A DNA stretch of 64,000 nucleotides, from positions 29,119-93,118 of the forward strand of contig JBCNVB010000011.1 in NCBI GenBank assembly GCA_039630415.1. Reading direction: 5' to 3'. The DNA is from a bacterium (GTDB lineage Bacteria > DRYD01). Position numbers: made by a program. Below are positions 54,001-57,000 of the stretch, piece by piece; the first letter of the stretch is position 1; each line of letters starts with the position of its first letter.

Positions 54001-57000
54001 TGGCCCAGGCCATTGAACAGCAATTAAGGATGTTAGAGTCAGTTGCTTCTATGGATGGATTGACGAAGTTGTACAACAGGGGTGCTTTTGAGAAATTTTA
54101 CAATGCTATTGCTCTTGAGTGTAAGATGAAGATGGCACTTGGAATTTCTAGAAATTTCGCAGTTATTATGATGGATGTTGATAATTTCAAATCTATAAAT
54201 GATACATACGGTCACGATGTTGGTGATAGGGTTCTAGTATTGTTGGCTGATGTAATAAGAAGGGTAAAAAGAAGTACGGATATTGCATCAAGATATGGTG
54301 GAGAAGAATTCATTATTATTACTAATGTTAATTCCAAAATAGAAGCTTTAAAACTTGCTCTTGAGCTTAAGAATTCTATTTATAATGCTTCAGTTAGTGT
54401 TAATCAGGATATAAAAATAAGTGTTACTATAAGTATTGGGATATCTTTTTATCCTGATGATTCTATAGATAAAGATGAGTTAGTTAGAATAGCTGATCAA
54501 AATTTATATTATTCGAAAAGGAGTGGAAAAAATAAGGTGAGTTTGATTATTAATGGAAATGTTGTTAGTTTGTCTAATGAAAGGGAATTAGATTTGATGG
54601 TAAGAGAAAAGGTTTTAGTGGAGGAATAGACTTATGTTTAAACTTACGCAAAAGATAATGTTTATGGTTTTGTTGTTTTGTGTGGTTTTGGGACAGGAAT
54701 TTGATGAGCTTAAGGGGTTTGATGAAGTCAAATTTATTAAGGAAGAAATAGAATTTAGTTTCAAAGTAAGGGGATTAAGTAAGTATTCTAAGAGTGTATT
54801 AGATTCGCCAGCTTTTATTTCTATTATTTTTCCTGAGGAATTAAGGTTATTTTATTATCCTAGTATTTCAGATCTTTTGAATTTTAGTCCGGGGTTGTAT
54901 GTTGTTGAGGATGGAGCTTATTGGTATGTAGGAAGTAGGGGGGTTCAGGTTCCTGGTAGCTATAATTCTAGGATTTTGTCTTTAATTGATGGTGTTCCCA
55001 GTAATGAAATTATTTTTGGTGCTCCATTCGTTAGGTATCCATTTTTATTTGATTCTGTTGAAATTGTTCATGGGTATTCTAATGTATATTCTGGTGGTAA
55101 CTCTCTTGTAGCTACGATTAACTTTATACCTTACTTCTCGACCAATAGCTACAGTAATAGAATTTTTTCTAGCTTATATTTTATGGACGGTGTTAGGGGT
55201 GTTAGTGGGAATACTAATTTTGTTGCTATTAAACTTGATAAACCTGAGGTATATTTGGGATTAAATTTTTTCTCTTACTTTGGCAGGGACATTTTTCTAC
55301 ATCAAAGGGATGAGTATAGTTTTAAAGATGATAATTACTATTCTAGATTTTGGTATTTATATACTAGTTTTTTTGGCAAGAACTCTGTAACACAGTTTTA
55401 TGTGTTTAATGAATTTGATAGATTGCATTTCCCAACGGGAGCTTATGGTATTACTTTAAATGATAGGTTTGATCATATAGATCAGAATACTAACCAATTT
55501 TTTGTTAAGCATTCTGTTAGTTTTCAAGGTTCTAGCTTGAATTTTTGGATCTATGGTATAAACTATACAGAGTTTGCTGAGTATCCTATTTCAAGTCAAG
55601 GGTTTATCAATATTGACCATTTAAGGGGAAATAGTGTGGGTATGGATTTAAATTATTCAAAGATAGGTAAGAATTTCTCGTATATTGTTGGCTTAGAGTA
55701 TAAGAATCTTTCTTTTAGTCTTAGAAACTACGATGTTGACTATTTTAGTCGTGATTTTAGTCAGGAGTATTTGTATGTTAAGAGGGTGGGTTTACCTTTT
55801 ATTGCCTTGTATTTTACTTATGACTGGTACTTTTCTAGGGATTGGATTTTTTCTTTTTCATTAAGGTATGATAGTTATGGAGATATTTATGATAATTTTA
55901 AATCGATTATTTTGCCTAATTTTGCTTTGATAAGGCGTTACAAGGATAGAAGTGTTAAGCTGGTTTATTCTACTAACTATAGGGTTCCTTCTATAAATGA
56001 ATATTTTTATAATGATGGGGGGTTGTCTACTTTGAATAATCCCTATCTTCAGCCTGAGAGGCATACTACTTGGGAGTTGATATACTATAGGGAGTTCAAA
56101 TCTAGTAGTTTATATGGTTATTTTTCTGCTTCTGTTTATTATATGAAAATCAAGGATCTTATCAATTCGGTAAATATTGGTACCAATGATTTGAATGTAG
56201 AGGTTAGTCAGTATAGGAATGTTGGTAATATTGATGTTTGGGGCTTAGAGTTCGATTATGTACTTAGCCTTCTAGATAGAGAGTTTTTGAGAGTTTCATA
56301 TTCATATTGCAATGCTCGAGCAATTGATTACTTTAGTTTTCTTTCTAATTCACCAAAACATCTATTTCTATTGAAGTATGCAAAGAGGTTAACCGATAAT
56401 TTGTGGATTTCATTTGAAAATAAGTATACTTCTAGTGTGTTGGATGATTATGGTTTGAAAGTTGGGGATTACAACTTAACTAATTTAAATATGATTTATA
56501 GGTTGGATGATAGGAAAACTTTTTGTATCTCGGTACATAATCTTTTCAATGTTAGGGCTTATCAGGTTATAAGCTTGGCTAACAATTACCCGGTGTCTGT
56601 GTATCCTGTTAAACTTAGGACTATTTTTGTTAACTTTGAGTATAGGTTCTGAAGTTGAATATTGTTAACATATATATTTTTCTGGTTATATGTTGGTATT
56701 CATAATTTTGGATTCTATGCAGAAGAGGTTTGAGTTTTTGTAGTGATTTTTGATCTATTTCCAGCATGCATATACATTCTTTTTGTTTTAGACAGAAGTC
56801 TATTATTTGTTTGTAGTAGTAGTTTTTGGTTGGTGTTATTAAAGCATGGGGTGGTTCAAAAAATAATTCGGGTTTTATTTCTTTTTTTGTAAGGTAGGGT
56901 GGGTTTGAAATGATTACTGTTTTGAAATTAAGATCAGATTTTATTATGTTTAGCAAGGAAGAGTTTATTAGTGTTACATTGTTTATGTTGTTTATTTGTA

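What a model noticed while it worked through the whole genome (the two positions that open the first line are those of the whole stretch)
54634..56652. A diderm lineage without any MotA/TolQ/ExbB, ExbD/TolR or TonB protein
G000 has LPS synthesis and transport, BamA, TolC/AcrAB, secretins and one TonB-dependent-receptor-like gene (this locus). Even so, the lineage has no member of the MotA/TolQ/ExbB or ExbD/TolR families and no TonB C-terminal domain. It therefore lacks the Ton, Tol-Pal and Mot proton-driven motors, and the receptor is an orphan.
Evidence so far: PF01618 0 of 5; it rang in all 7 diderm bacterial controls, in B. subtilis and in an archaeon. PF02472 0 of 11. PF03544 0 of 5. The receptor has TonB_dep_Rec_b-barrel at E 5.6e-23 and Plug at 9e-07. 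Envelope genes appear in calls 17, 19, 27 and 29.
(Added by a program. Inside this text positions count along the whole contig: contig position 29,119 is position 1 of the stretch shown here. "Call 12" and the like, gene names such as g00115 and contig names such as C1 are that model's own, and its searches are not shown. The text may have been shortened before it was handed on; [...] marks where a part breaks off. The agent that wrote the report below was given it as the finding of a first reader that could run no searches.)

Follow-up and report, generated by a model that had tools for sequence, protein, structure and literature searches.

The report
Hot-spring phylum lacking envelope proton motors
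A small hot-spring bacterial phylum with an outer membrane shows no trace of the proton-driven Ton, Tol or flagellar stator motors, yet keeps a conserved family of TonB-type outer-membrane receptors and a flagellar basal body that would normally need them.

Summary
The ORF at window 54634-56652 is a real TonB-dependent-transporter-like protein: Pfam barrel 5.6e-23, Plug 9e-07, model pTM 0.82, FptA/BtuB fold. The absence claim holds and widens. In all 11 genomes of the window's phylum (Calescibacterota by record title; 71-90 % complete), none reaches the cut-off for MotA/ExbB, ExbD, TonB_C or TonB_2. By contrast, 49 of 50 genomes from other families have MotA/ExbB, and the one exception lacks BamA and LpxC. 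In G000 this was confirmed without the scan's filter: Pfam on 237 membrane proteins, local profiles over all six-frame ORFs with passing controls, and hhalign.

- G007 carries one ZorA-like defence gene.
- The receptor is not a lone orphan. It belongs to three lineage-specific paralogue clades found in 9 of 11 genomes, each beside a PF04392 periplasmic binding protein.
- In 6 of 7 genus-g1 genomes it ends an HD-GYP / binding-protein / GGDEF / receptor operon.
- The canonical TonB box is replaced by a different, conserved N-terminal strand.
- The phylum keeps FliF, FliG, FliM, FliN, FlhA, FlhB, FliP and rod genes, but no flagellin or stator.
- Lack of Tol-Pal fits an SLH/OmpM-type envelope.

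Best reading: real loss of the motors, with a TonB-independent ligand gate feeding c-di-GMP signalling. A cryptic energiser is not excluded.

The parts
54634..56652 (+). TonB-dependent-transporter-like outer-membrane protein, 672 aa. It has a signal peptide, a non-canonical but conserved N-terminal strand (about residues 36-52), a plug, a barrel, and a C-terminal Phe.
   Evidence: Pfam PF00593 5.6e-23 and PF07715 9e-07. AlphaFold model pLDDT 76.6, pTM 0.82. Foldseek top hits FptA, BtuB, PqqU and FoxA at TM 0.66-0.72. N-terminal alignments. Sequence.
53244..54629 (+). Membrane diguanylate cyclase, 461 aa. The N-terminal half (about 250 aa) has no Pfam family and flanking hydrophobic segments. 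The C-terminal GGDEF domain carries GGEEF and an RxxD site.
   Evidence: PF00990 8.2e-40 and TIGR00254 1.4e-48. N-terminal 249 aa has no family. Motifs read from the sequence. The start overlaps the upstream stop (ATGA).
52432..53247 (+). Periplasmic binding protein of the PF04392 (ABC_sub_bind) kind, 271 aa with a signal peptide. It is the constant partner of every receptor of this family in the phylum.
   Evidence: PF04392 8.3e-06, 25.7 bits against a cut-off of 25.9; relatives score 32.5 and 38.4 bits. Model pLDDT 87.3 with a two-lobed PBP fold; top hits 3LKV, 6HNI, 3LFT, and also LuxP. Present in 9 of 11 genomes.
51227..52435 (+). Multi-TM HD-GYP c-di-GMP phosphodiesterase, 402 aa; first gene of the operon.
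   Evidence: PF13487 HD_5 1.8e-42. NosR-family c-di-GMP phosphodiesterase model 2.1e-35, below that model's cut-off. HHExxDGxGYP motif read. ATGA overlap with the next gene.
51136..51207 (+). tRNA-Met (CAT), immediately upstream of the operon. It marks the operon's 5' limit.
   Evidence: ARAGORN.

Best explanation
The phylum holding this window (Calescibacterota, by the record titles of its closest relatives) has truly lost every canonical proton-driven 5:2 motor of the cell envelope: ExbB-ExbD-TonB, TolQ-TolR-TolA and MotA-MotB. Its outer membrane is probably tied to the wall by an SLH/OmpM-type connector, so Tol-Pal is not needed.

The ORF at 54634-56652 is a folded, maintained plug-and-barrel outer-membrane protein of the TonB-dependent-transporter fold. 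Here it must work without TonB. It forms a fixed module with a PF04392-type periplasmic binding protein.

In the window's genus the module sits in a translationally coupled operon: HD-GYP phosphodiesterase, binding protein, membrane GGDEF cyclase, receptor. The inferred mechanism has three steps:
1. A small ligand (the solved PF04392 proteins bind aromatic amino acids) is bound at, or passes slowly through, the outer-membrane protein.
2. The periplasmic binding protein captures it.
3. The loaded binding protein acts on the periplasmic part of the cyclase, as LuxP acts on LuxQ, and shifts the c-di-GMP level.

The conserved non-canonical N-terminal strand of the receptor is inferred to dock a periplasmic partner other than TonB.

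Shown: the absences, the fold, the module and operon conservation, and the loss of the canonical TonB box. Inferred: TonB-independent passage or signalling, the ligand class, and who binds the N-terminal strand.
For: Absence of the motors:
- 0 of 11 genomes over cut-off for PF01618, PF02472, PF03544 and PF13103, against 49 of 50 outside genomes for PF01618.
- The single outside exception, G033, has neither BamA nor LpxC.
- If each genome held the gene and lost it at random at a rate of 1 minus completeness, the chance of 11 misses is about 2e-9. This is my arithmetic from the completeness values and assumes independence.
- Filter-free confirmation in G000.

The receptor is maintained, not a stray:
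- Three paralogue clades at 52-56, 41-43 and 33-34 % identity to the query, against <=29 % for any outside protein.
- 98 invariant columns across 18 sequences.
- Intact ORFs in G000, G003, G004, G005, G006, G007, G008 and G009. G001's copy is cut by a contig end.

The module:
- A PF04392-like gene sits directly upstream of the receptor, or one gene away, at every locus examined.
- The four-gene operon occurs in 6 of 7 genus-g1 genomes.
- Junctions are ATGA overlaps plus a GGAGG site.

Loss of the TonB box:
- Outside homologues read ...KVVTASR / IIVTAAR.
- The 18 phylum sequences instead conserve E-x-x-F-x-x-x-V/I-Q/E-S/G-L-x-K-Y-S with a 3-residue insertion.

Folds: TBDT fold; complete PBP fold for the partner, with LuxP among its matches.

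Nothing TonB/ExbBD-like lies within about 8 kb of five other receptor loci.

SLH / coiled-coil / long C-terminal protein in 5 of 5 genomes.
Against: - All genomes are incomplete MAGs (71-90 %); none is closed.
- TonB_C and TonB_2 are weak models (3 and 0 controls over cut-off). My local TonB/TolA profile failed its own control.
- TonB was once wrongly thought absent from cyanobacteria (abstract passage of PMC2771747).
- The genome scan missed this very receptor in five genomes, so it can give false negatives.
- A strongly conserved periplasmic N-terminal strand is what one expects if some energising partner still exists.
- Outside the phylum the same kind of module (binding protein then receptor) occurs in genomes that hold 2-7 MotA/ExbB genes, with a canonical TonB box. 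So the ancestral module was probably TonB-dependent.
- One copy in G004 is split into a plug ORF and a barrel ORF, which hints at decay.
- No expression data were available.
Confidence: 0.55

Rival explanations
1. A cryptic energiser exists. This would be a TonB/ExbBD or MotAB analogue so divergent, or so unrelated in sequence, that Pfam, NCBIfam, local profiles and hhalign all miss it. It would power the receptors through their conserved N-terminal strand, and perhaps also the flagellar rotor.
For: - The N-terminal strand is conserved across three paralogue clades.
- A complete C-ring, FliG-FliM-FliN, is kept.
- Dozens of G000 membrane proteins have no family.
- Cyanobacterial TonB was once missed.
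- The TonB models are weak.
Against: - ExbB/MotA and ExbD are among the easiest membrane families to detect: 49 of 50 outside genomes, and leave-one-out E of 1e-23 to 1e-80.
- None of 31 unannotated multi-TM proteins exceeds 1.3 % hhalign probability.
- No conserved unknown membrane pair lies beside any receptor or flagellar gene.
- FliG has lost the Arg that pairs with MotA-Glu98 in 6 of 6 sequences.
- There is no flagellin to turn.
Confidence: 0.2
2. The receptors are relics in decay. After the Ton system was lost, the TBDT genes linger without function and the apparent module is inherited synteny.
For: - The canonical TonB box is lost.
- One G004 copy is split into a plug ORF and a barrel ORF.
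- No module was found in G002 or G010.
- The Pfam barrel score is low enough for the scan to miss five copies.
Against: - Full-length ORFs persist at only 33-56 % identity in eight genomes, with 98 invariant columns. That depth of divergence without disruption means purifying selection.
- Three paralogue clades have been kept, each with its own partner gene.
- The operon is tightly coupled by translation.
- The model folds confidently.
Confidence: 0.1
3. Artefact of incomplete or mis-binned MAGs. The motor genes lie on contigs that binning systematically drops.
For: Completeness is 71-90 %. G000 has 31 contigs. A ZorA-like gene sits on a 3-kb contig in G007, which shows that small contigs hold relevant genes.
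Against: - Eleven independent species-level genomes from three genera all lack three to four separate gene families. Meanwhile scattered flagellar and envelope genes are recovered in 9-11 of 11 and 4-5 of 5 genomes.
- Loss of the FliG Arg and of the TonB box are independent sequence signs of motor loss.
Confidence: 0.03

Closest known systems
TonB-dependent transporters (BtuB, FptA, FoxA, PqqU)
   Same: Plug plus long beta-barrel fold, with full-length structural match at TM 0.66-0.72. Pfam Plug and barrel are both over cut-off. A flexible N-terminus precedes the plug. The last residue is aromatic.
   Different: No TonB, ExbB or ExbD in the genome or phylum. The canonical TonB box is replaced. 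The receptor is always paired with a PF04392 binding protein. Identity to solved members is 12-18 %.
Binding-protein / TBDT modules in other phyla (G105, G145, G246, G300, possibly G249)
   Same: A PF04392-like gene lies directly upstream of a TBDT of similar size.
   Different: Those genomes have 2-7 MotA/ExbB-family genes. Their receptors keep a canonical TonB box and are only 17-20 % identical to G000's. No function is known to me for these modules, and my literature search on the pairing returned nothing about it.
LuxP-LuxQ and YfiBNR-type envelope sensing (works like; not a member)
   Same: A periplasmic binding protein is encoded beside a membrane sensor enzyme. LuxP is among the structural matches of the partner. 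The operon holds an outer-membrane component, a periplasmic component and an inner-membrane GGDEF enzyme. The YfiBNR comparison is recalled, not tested.
   Different: There is no sequence relationship to LuxQ or YfiB/R/N apart from the GGDEF domain. The outer-membrane part is a TBDT-fold barrel. Binding between the parts is not shown.
Stator-less, filament-less flagellar relics (Buchnera; Lysobacter export genes)
   Same: Basal-body and type III export genes are kept while fliC, motA and motB are lost (passages of PMC8109811, and PMC9927559). Here FliF, FliG, FliM, FliN, FlhA, FlhB, FliP, FliE and rod proteins are present, flagellin is 0 of 5 and MotA 0 of 11.
   Different: This is a free-living thermophilic phylum rather than an endosymbiont, and the state is shared by three genera. 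The full C-ring is kept. The genes are scattered over at least six loci in G000. I did not check whether Buchnera or Lysobacter keep Ton or Tol motors; here none remains.
OmpM/SlpA-type outer-membrane tethering of Terrabacteria-type diderms
   Same: An SLH domain, then coiled coil, then a long C-terminal region, in one protein per genome in 5 of 5 genomes. The SLH model rings in Synechococcus, Thermus, Deinococcus and Thermotoga controls. These lineages lack Pal, Lpp and OmpA (abstracts in the listing).
   Different: Those control diderms all still have MotA/ExbB-family proteins (control line). A barrel at the C-terminus of the protein here was not tested.

Membership tests
TonB-dependent transporter (TBDT) | N-terminal plug domain inside a roughly 22-stranded beta-barrel | tested here: met
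   PF07715 29.8 bits (cut-off 23.9) and PF00593 82.9 bits (cut-off 27). Model pTM 0.82, with 22-24 long strands after residue 160. Foldseek FptA, BtuB, PqqU at E about 1e-29 to 1e-30.
TonB-dependent transporter (TBDT) | Canonical TonB box (hydrophobic x-V-V-T-A-type strand) ahead of the plug | tested here: not met
   Outside homologues show KVVTASR, IIVTAAR or VVVSASK. The phylum's sequences show F-S-F-K-V-R/Q-G-L-S-K or F-I-T-T-V-E-S-L-T-K with a 3-residue insertion. A different strand is conserved in its place.
TonB-dependent transporter (TBDT) | An ExbB-ExbD-TonB energising complex in the same cell | tested here: not met
   0 of 11 genomes for PF01618, PF02472, PF03544 and PF13103. Filter-free checks in G000.
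TonB-dependent transporter (TBDT) | Energy-dependent substrate import | not testable with these tools
   Needs transport assays.
PF04392 ABC_sub_bind periplasmic binding protein | Family profile match and two-lobed binding-protein fold | tested here: met
   G000 scores 25.7 bits, just under the 25.9 cut-off; paralogues score 32.5 and 38.4 bits. PF04392 is precomputed for all 10 cluster representatives. Fold search top hits are the PF04392 structures 3LKV, 6HNI and 3LFT.
PF04392 ABC_sub_bind periplasmic binding protein | Partner ABC permease and ATPase | not tested
   None lies in the operon or next to the paralogues. The genome was not searched for one.
GGDEF diguanylate cyclase / HD-GYP phosphodiesterase | Catalytic motifs GG(D/E)EF and HHExxDGxGYP | tested here: met
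   GGEEF preceded by RxxD, and HHESWDGSGYP, both read in the translations. Domain scores. Activity not testable.
Bacterial flagellar motor | Rotor and export apparatus (FliF, FliG, FliM, FliN, FlhA, FlhB, FliP, rod) | tested here: met
   FlhA 11 of 11, FliG_C 9 of 11, FliF 5 of 5, FliMN_C 5 of 5, Flg_bbr_C 5 of 5. G000 genes.
Bacterial flagellar motor | MotA/MotB stator, and the FliG charged residues that engage it | tested here: not met
   PF01618 0 of 11. No OmpA-like domain in G000. The position aligned to FliG Arg281 is Val x4, Thr and Gln in 6 of 6 sequences, while the Asp289 position is acidic in 6 of 6. Residue roles come from passages of PMC4030992. Mapping E. coli numbers onto the Thermotoga/Aquifex alignment is by my recall of the shared RAA...DD/DE motif.
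Bacterial flagellar motor | Hook and filament (FlgE, FlgK/L, flagellin) | tested here: not met
   Flagellin_N 0 of 5 over cut-off; the weak hits are Glu/Lys-rich coiled-coil proteins. All Flg_bbr_C proteins lie in frames of 151-279 aa, so there is no hook-sized protein. A FliK-like protein is present.
Tol-Pal system | TolQ, TolR, TolA and a Pal/OmpA-like peptidoglycan-binding lipoprotein | tested here: not met
   PF01618 and PF02472 0 of 11. PF00691 in 3 of 11 genomes (G001, G007, G008), none in G000. TolB not searched.
Zorya-type defence motor (ZorA) | MotA-like membrane domain followed by a long coiled-coil tail | tested here: inconclusive
   Only G007:C155 (632+ aa, open at the contig end) matches the membrane part: ZorA1 6.3e-11 covering model 139-520, and PF01618 at 18.2 bits, below cut-off. 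No orthologue in G000. ZorB was not seen because the contig ends.

The most novel reading that the evidence does not exclude
Calescibacterota would be the first diderm lineage shown to run plug-and-barrel outer-membrane transporters, and to keep a complete flagellar rotor, with no MotA/ExbB-type 5:2 motor at all. There are two routes. Either the receptors have become TonB-independent ligand gates whose re-invented N-terminal strand talks to a periplasmic binding protein. Or an unrecognised, non-homologous energy transducer has replaced both Ton and Mot in this phylum. The second route would be a new class of envelope motor.
Probability: 0.15. Interest if true: 0.95.

Novelty: new variant of a known kind. 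Interest (0 to 1): 0.72.

Why it matters
TonB-dependent transporters are defined by their need for the ExbB-ExbD-TonB motor, and flagellar rotors by their need for MotAB. A whole phylum that keeps both passive halves under selection, while lacking every known active half, is a natural experiment. It asks what a plug-and-barrel protein and a C-ring can do without a proton motor, and whether any other energiser exists.

It also corrects a published inference. Colman et al. [quoted passage not shown] No flagellin or stator is detectable in the genomes searched here.

The receptor / binding-protein / GGDEF / HD-GYP operon offers a compact four-gene system in which TonB-independent outer-membrane sensing could be tested in vitro.

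The searches I ran found no paper dealing with Ton, Tol or Mot in this phylum:
- searched four names of the lineage.
- One search found 5 papers with the phylum name, none in title or abstract.
- 'tonb' occurs 0 times in the two genomics papers read.
- Searches found no report of TBDT genes in a TonB-less diderm.

Supplementary tables of those papers were not looked at and could hold gene inventories.

Tried and rejected
- Complex prediction of the receptor (residues 22-672) with the binding protein (20-271) gave 'no answer': scores 0.63, 0.59 and 0.59, but one control scored 0.49. It is not used for or against binding.
- The look-up of sequencing runs for RNA listed no RNA holder.
- Weak PF01618 hits were examined and rejected: an LptF/G-like permease, NuoL, PiT and a sensor protein.
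- Weak Flagellin_N hits were rejected as coiled-coil proteins.
- ZorA hits other than G007:C155 cover only the coiled-coil tail of the model.
- Adjacent pairs of a 3-5 TM protein and a single-TM protein in G000 (15 pairs) turned out to be PilC/pseudopilin, FtsX/M23, proteases and the like, or unannotated proteins without the MotA/ExbB layout.
- A Pro-rich single-TM screen found no TonB-like architecture.
- The local TonB/TolA profile failed its leave-one-out control, so nothing is drawn from it.
- PF04453 (LptD), PF13103 and TIGR03513 have poor controls and are not counted as evidence of absence.
- The three named loci were at first treated as extra genomes.
- The promoter/terminator scan was uninformative: 40 promoter-like sites against 34.4 expected.
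- The literature search on the PF04392 / TBDT / cyclase association found only a ligand table for PF04392.
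Full report
THE OBJECT. The finding's coordinates are window coordinates. 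The ORF listing gives a single ORF at 54634..56652 on the + strand, 672 aa. NCBIfam gives only far-sub-threshold matches to TonB-dependent receptor models. With an alignment of 18 relatives, AlphaFold2 gives mean pLDDT 76.6 and pTM 0.82: a mixed alpha/beta N-terminal domain, a long antiparallel barrel, and a low-confidence N-terminus. Foldseek against the PDB returns only TonB-dependent transporters at the top (FptA, BtuB, PqqU, FoxA, FhuE) with E about 1e-28 to 1e-30 and TM 0.66-0.72 over the full length. The protein ends in Phe. So the gene is real and has the TBDT fold.

THE GENOME AND THE LINEAGE. The window is G000:C3:29119-93118. G000 has 1,404,407 bases in 31 contigs, is 89.24 % complete and 1.65 % contaminated, and has about 31 % G+C. 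In the kinship list, ten genomes share its family or order (G001-G010), and the next relatives are only 'same domain'. A search limited to 'phylum' returns exactly these 11 genomes. Their completeness ranges from 71 to 90 %. The closest receptor and binding-protein relatives bear the source name Candidatus Calescibacterium. I therefore take the phylum to be Calescibacterota (Calescamantes, EM19). That rests on those titles, not on a phylogeny.

THE ABSENCE, PHYLUM-WIDE. Counts are matches over the curated cut-off.
- PF01618 MotA_ExbB: 0 of 11, against 49 of 50 genomes of 50 other families.
- PF02472 ExbD: 0 of 11.
- PF03544 TonB_C: 0 of 11 (only 3 controls pass the cut-off).
- PF13103 TonB_2: 0 of 11 at E <= 1 (no control passes).
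- TIGR03513 GldL: 0 of 11 (no control passes).

The only outside genome without PF01618, G033, has neither BamA nor LpxC, so it is not a diderm. I read all sub-threshold PF01618 hits in the phylum. They are an LptF/G-like permease, NuoL, a PiT transporter and a membrane sensor protein. One hit is different. G007:C155 encodes a protein of 632+ aa with an N-terminal membrane domain and a long coiled-coil tail. It matches ZorA1 at 6.3e-11 over model positions 139-520, and PF01618 at 18.2 bits, below cut-off. It is the only ZorA hit that reaches the membrane part of the model, and it has no orthologue in G000. So the strict statement 'no member of the family in the lineage' has one exception, a defence-type gene on a 3-kb contig.

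THE ABSENCE IN G000, WITHOUT THE SCAN'S FILTER. This check was needed because the genome scan can miss things. With PF00593 it found the receptor in only 4 of 11 genomes, although later work shows it in 9 (below). I laid the genome, called 1,382 genes and predicted TM segments. The checks were as follows.
- Pfam on all 92 proteins of 120-420 aa with 2-5 predicted TM segments gave no MotA_ExbB at E <= 0.01.
- Pfam on all 145 proteins of 90-420 aa with one N-terminal TM segment gave no ExbD, MotB, TonB, TolA, Pal or OmpA at E <= 0.001.
- Local profiles built from six outgroup ExbB/MotA genes and three adjacent ExbD/TolR genes were run with --max over all 5,799 six-frame ORFs of at least 50 aa. 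They gave best E-values of 0.14 and 0.016, to proteins that are not of this kind.
- Left-out members scored 1e-43 to 1e-80 and 1e-23 to 1e-38.
- A third profile, of the genes next to ExbD (TonB/TolA candidates), failed its own control and is not used.
- hhalign of 31 unannotated multi-TM proteins against the ExbB/MotA alignment gave at most 1.3 % probability, against 100 % for a control.
- No Pro-rich single-TM protein has TonB's layout.

If the genes existed and were lost from bins at random, eleven misses would have a chance of about 2e-9. This is my arithmetic from the completeness column and assumes independence.

IS IT A DIDERM? Yes.
- G000 encodes BamA with POTRA repeats, two secretins, an OEP (TolC-type) protein followed by a HlyD-type fusion protein, a protein with the LptD_N/LptA domain, and MlaD.
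- It also encodes two Skp/OmpH, a SurA-like protein, a LolA-like protein, MlaE and a YaiO barrel, LpxB and an LptF/G-like permease.
- Omp85 and LpxC match in 4 of 4 phylum genomes tested, covering all three genera.

There are two qualifications. PF04453 (LptD barrel) gave 0 of 5 but rang in only two controls. LpxC of G000 is interrupted: about 45 N-terminal residues lie in one frame and the rest in another, with the break at a Lys/poly-A run. G004's copy has a TAA at about the same model position, while G007's is intact. This may be an assembly error, slippage or real decay in genus g1. I did not resolve it.

WHY NO TOL-PAL IS NOT THE SURPRISE. An OmpA-like domain occurs in only 3 of 11 genomes and not in G000. 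But one SLH-domain protein is present in 5 of 5 genomes. Where the gene is complete enough to read, it shows an SLH domain, then coiled coil, then a long C-terminal region. In the controls SLH rings in Synechococcus, Thermus, Deinococcus and Thermotoga. According to the abstracts listed (Witwinowski et al. preprint; PMC10628300), most diderm Terrabacteria lack Pal, Lpp and OmpA and use OmpM instead. I saw only those abstracts, and the preprint text holds none of my six search terms. So the missing Tol-Pal fits a known envelope type. The surprise lies in Ton and Mot, because all four of those control diderms still ring for PF01618.

THE RECEPTOR IS A FAMILY WITH A FIXED PARTNER. A search of 5.8 billion proteins finds three groups of close relatives: 52-56 % identity (666-672 aa), 41-43 % (692-730 aa) and 33-34 % (750-760 aa). 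After these there is a drop to <= 29 % for proteins named from Desulfuromonadales, Geobacteraceae, Myxococcota and others. Eighteen phylum sequences share 98 invariant columns.

In G000 the upstream genes on the same strand are an HD-GYP phosphodiesterase (51227-52435), a 271-aa PF04392-like protein with a signal peptide (52432-53247) and a membrane GGDEF cyclase (53244-54629). The junctions are two ATGA overlaps and a 4-base gap preceded by GGAGG. A tRNA-Met lies just upstream.

In G008 and G009 the other two receptor types each follow directly on a gene that is PF04392-positive (32.5 and 38.4 bits) or, where Pfam is silent, 37-39 % identical to G000's binding protein. A profile of these binding proteins finds them in 9 of 11 genomes, all but G002 and G010. 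tblastn shows the full four-gene operon in G000, G003, G004, G005 and G006, and in G001 with the receptor cut by the contig end. That is 6 of 7 genomes of genus g1.

The three named loci are the same contigs as in G001, G005 and G006 and add nothing independent. G004 holds a second copy that is split into a 231-aa plug ORF and a 516-aa barrel ORF. No gene within about 8 kb of the five G004/G008/G009 loci resembles TonB, ExbB or ExbD. The neighbours are a peptidase M24, an amidohydrolase, a radical-SAM enzyme, LpxB, an FtsX/MacB-type permease, thioredoxin and unknowns.

THE TONB BOX. In alignments with outside homologues, the segment before the plug reads ...V-E-K-V-V-T-A-S-R... (and IIVTAAR, VVVSASK, LVTTASR), which is the usual TonB-box pattern. 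All phylum sequences carry instead E-(I/L/V)-x-F-x-x-x-(V/I)-(Q/E/R)-(S/G)-(L/I)-x-K-Y-(S/T), with a three-residue insertion. The canonical box is gone, but its replacement is conserved across paralogues that are otherwise only 33-56 % identical. That argues for a surviving periplasmic contact. The model gives this stretch low confidence (pLDDT 40-54), as expected for a segment that orders only on binding.

THE SAME KIND OF MODULE ELSEWHERE. A profile of the outside subfamily found hits in 38 of 301 genomes at E <= 1e-40: 6 of the 11 phylum genomes and 32 of 290 others. Among the 24 outside loci returned, four have a PF04392-like gene directly upstream of the receptor (G300, G145, G246, G105), plus a weak fifth (G249). 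All five genomes have 2-7 PF01618 genes over the cut-off. Their receptors keep a canonical box and are only 17-20 % identical to G000's. So pairing of a binding protein with a TBDT is not unique to the phylum and elsewhere coexists with Ton-type motors. The phylum's peculiarity is the loss of the motor and of the box. I found no paper on this pairing. A review table lists L-Trp, L-Tyr and L-Phe as ligands in the three solved PF04392 proteins (passage of PMC10443332).

THE PARTNER. With 15 sequences the binding protein folds at pLDDT 87.3 and pTM 0.80 into a complete two-lobed binding-protein fold. The nearest structures are the PF04392 entries 3LKV, 6HNI/6HNJ (CD0873) and 3LFT (with L-Trp), followed by sugar-binding proteins and LuxP solved with the periplasmic domain of LuxQ. 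The GGDEF protein has GGEEF with an RxxD site five residues before it, and the HD-GYP protein has HHESWDGSGYP. The N-terminal 249 residues of the cyclase match no family.

MECHANISM. Shown: fold, module, operon, motifs, loss of box and motor. Inferred: the outer-membrane protein binds or slowly admits a small ligand without energy input; the binding protein captures the ligand; the loaded binding protein modulates the cyclase, as binding proteins do with LuxQ-type sensors, with the HD-GYP enzyme as counterweight. In genus g2, where no cyclase is adjacent, the pair may serve uptake alone.

THE FLAGELLAR TWIST. Colman et al. [quoted passage not shown] I confirm the genes:
- FHIPEP in 11 of 11 genomes.
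- FliG_C in 9 of 11.
- FliF in 5 of 5.
- FliMN_C in 5 of 5, as a FliM-sized and a FliN-sized ORF.
- Flg_bbr_C in 5 of 5.

In G000 the parts are FliG with all three domains, FlhB, FlhA, FliP, FliE, a FlgC-like protein, three FlgF/G-like proteins, a FliK-like protein and an SLT transglycosylase, scattered over at least six loci.

But Flagellin_N is 0 of 5 over the cut-off, and the weak hits are Glu/Lys-rich coiled-coil proteins. All rod-family proteins lie in frames of 151-279 aa, too short for a hook or junction protein. There is no MotA, and G000 has no OmpA-like domain for a MotB.

Aligned to the solved FliG of Aquifex and Thermotoga, the torque helix MSKRAAxLLKDEL reads MPQVQAKVIKKEI in G000. 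In six phylum FliGs the position of the Arg is Val (four), Thr or Gln; the first acidic position is Lys in five; the second stays acidic in six. A review states that FliG-Arg281 pairs with MotA-Glu98 and FliG-Asp289 with MotA-Arg90, and that FliG(R281V) impairs stator assembly (passages of PMC4030992). The mapping of E. coli numbers onto this motif is from my memory. G000 FliG also has a Pro/Thr-rich insert at about residues 213-260.

The state resembles Buchnera, where all lineages lost fliC, motA and motB but keep basal bodies (passage of PMC8109811), and Lysobacter (PMC9927559). The relic as such is therefore a known kind. New here are a free-living thermophilic phylum, a full C-ring, and the simultaneous absence of every other motor of the family.

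RIVALS. They are four: a cryptic energiser (0.2), decay (0.1), binning artefact (0.03), and the main reading of true loss with TonB-independent function (0.55). The strongest point for a cryptic energiser is the conserved N-terminal strand, together with the history of TonB being overlooked in cyanobacteria (abstract passage of PMC2771747). The strongest points against it are that ExbB and ExbD are easy to detect, and that two independent interaction surfaces, the TonB box and the FliG Arg, have both changed.

VERDICT. The receptor is a new variant of a known kind. The lineage-wide absence of all 5:2 envelope motors in a diderm that keeps their passive partners is, in the searches I ran, unreported.

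Noticed in passing
G000:C18 about 47730-48500, minus strand (outside the window); G004:C18:30909-31535: LpxC is interrupted in G000: about 45 N-terminal residues lie in one frame and the rest in another, with the break at a Lys/poly-A run. G004's copy has a TAA at about the same model position, while G007's is intact. This could be an assembly error, slippage or decay of lipid A synthesis in genus g1.
   Followed up: partly
G000 loci L042:9067-10137, L043:3251-6563, L057:9227-10024, L056:8063-8836, L058:5034-8001, L059:8787-10403, L129:17596-18348, G000:C21:18637-19194: A scattered but complete flagellar MS-ring, C-ring, export-gate and rod gene set, with no flagellin, no hook-sized protein and no stator. 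FliG lacks the Arg281-equivalent and carries a Pro/Thr-rich insert at about residues 213-260. This contradicts the published inference of flagellar motility for the lineage.
   Followed up: partly
window 58273-59355, 59375-61432, 61577-63454 (+): Three tandem paralogous proteins (360, 685 and 625 aa) with no Pfam family. They have Asn-rich N-termini without an obvious signal peptide, a shared hydrophobic motif, Gly/Ser/Glu-rich repeats and a conserved C-terminal half (41 % identity over 383 aa between the two long ones). The region has higher G+C (0.40 against about 0.31).
   Followed up: partly
G000:C10, locus L096:6552-14102: A tandem array of about ten paralogous membrane proteins of about 245-265 aa, none with a Pfam family, directly upstream of a CorA Mg2+ transporter gene.
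   Followed up: no
G007:C155 (L007:1126-3021): A ZorA-like protein (MotA-like membrane domain plus coiled-coil tail) on a 3-kb contig, open at the contig end. It is the only MotA-superfamily relative seen in the phylum. The upstream 304-aa gene has no PADLOC match.
   Followed up: partly
G004:C3 (L152:9008-11265): A second receptor copy in G004 is split into a 231-aa plug ORF and a 516-aa barrel ORF. It is still preceded by its PF04392-like partner.
   Followed up: no
G000:C18, L122:10456-12915: A DUF6754 protein (E 2e-103) is followed by two unannotated multi-TM proteins on the same strand. This is a strongly conserved membrane cluster of unknown function. hhalign to ExbB/MotA gave <= 1 %.
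   Followed up: partly
The genome search: Method note: the genome scan with the long, divergent PF00593 model missed the receptor in G001, G003, G005, G006 and G007, although those copies are 40-55 % identical to G000's, which scored 1.6e-25. Absences from that tool need an independent check.
   Followed up: yes
G000, several loci (e.g. L071:9890-17236, L061:225-1640, L131:7139-8560): There are many secreted DUF5122/SBBP beta-propeller proteins, and at least six T2SSF (PilC/GspF)-type platform proteins with numerous pilin-like genes. This suggests heavy investment in type IV filament systems.
   Followed up: no
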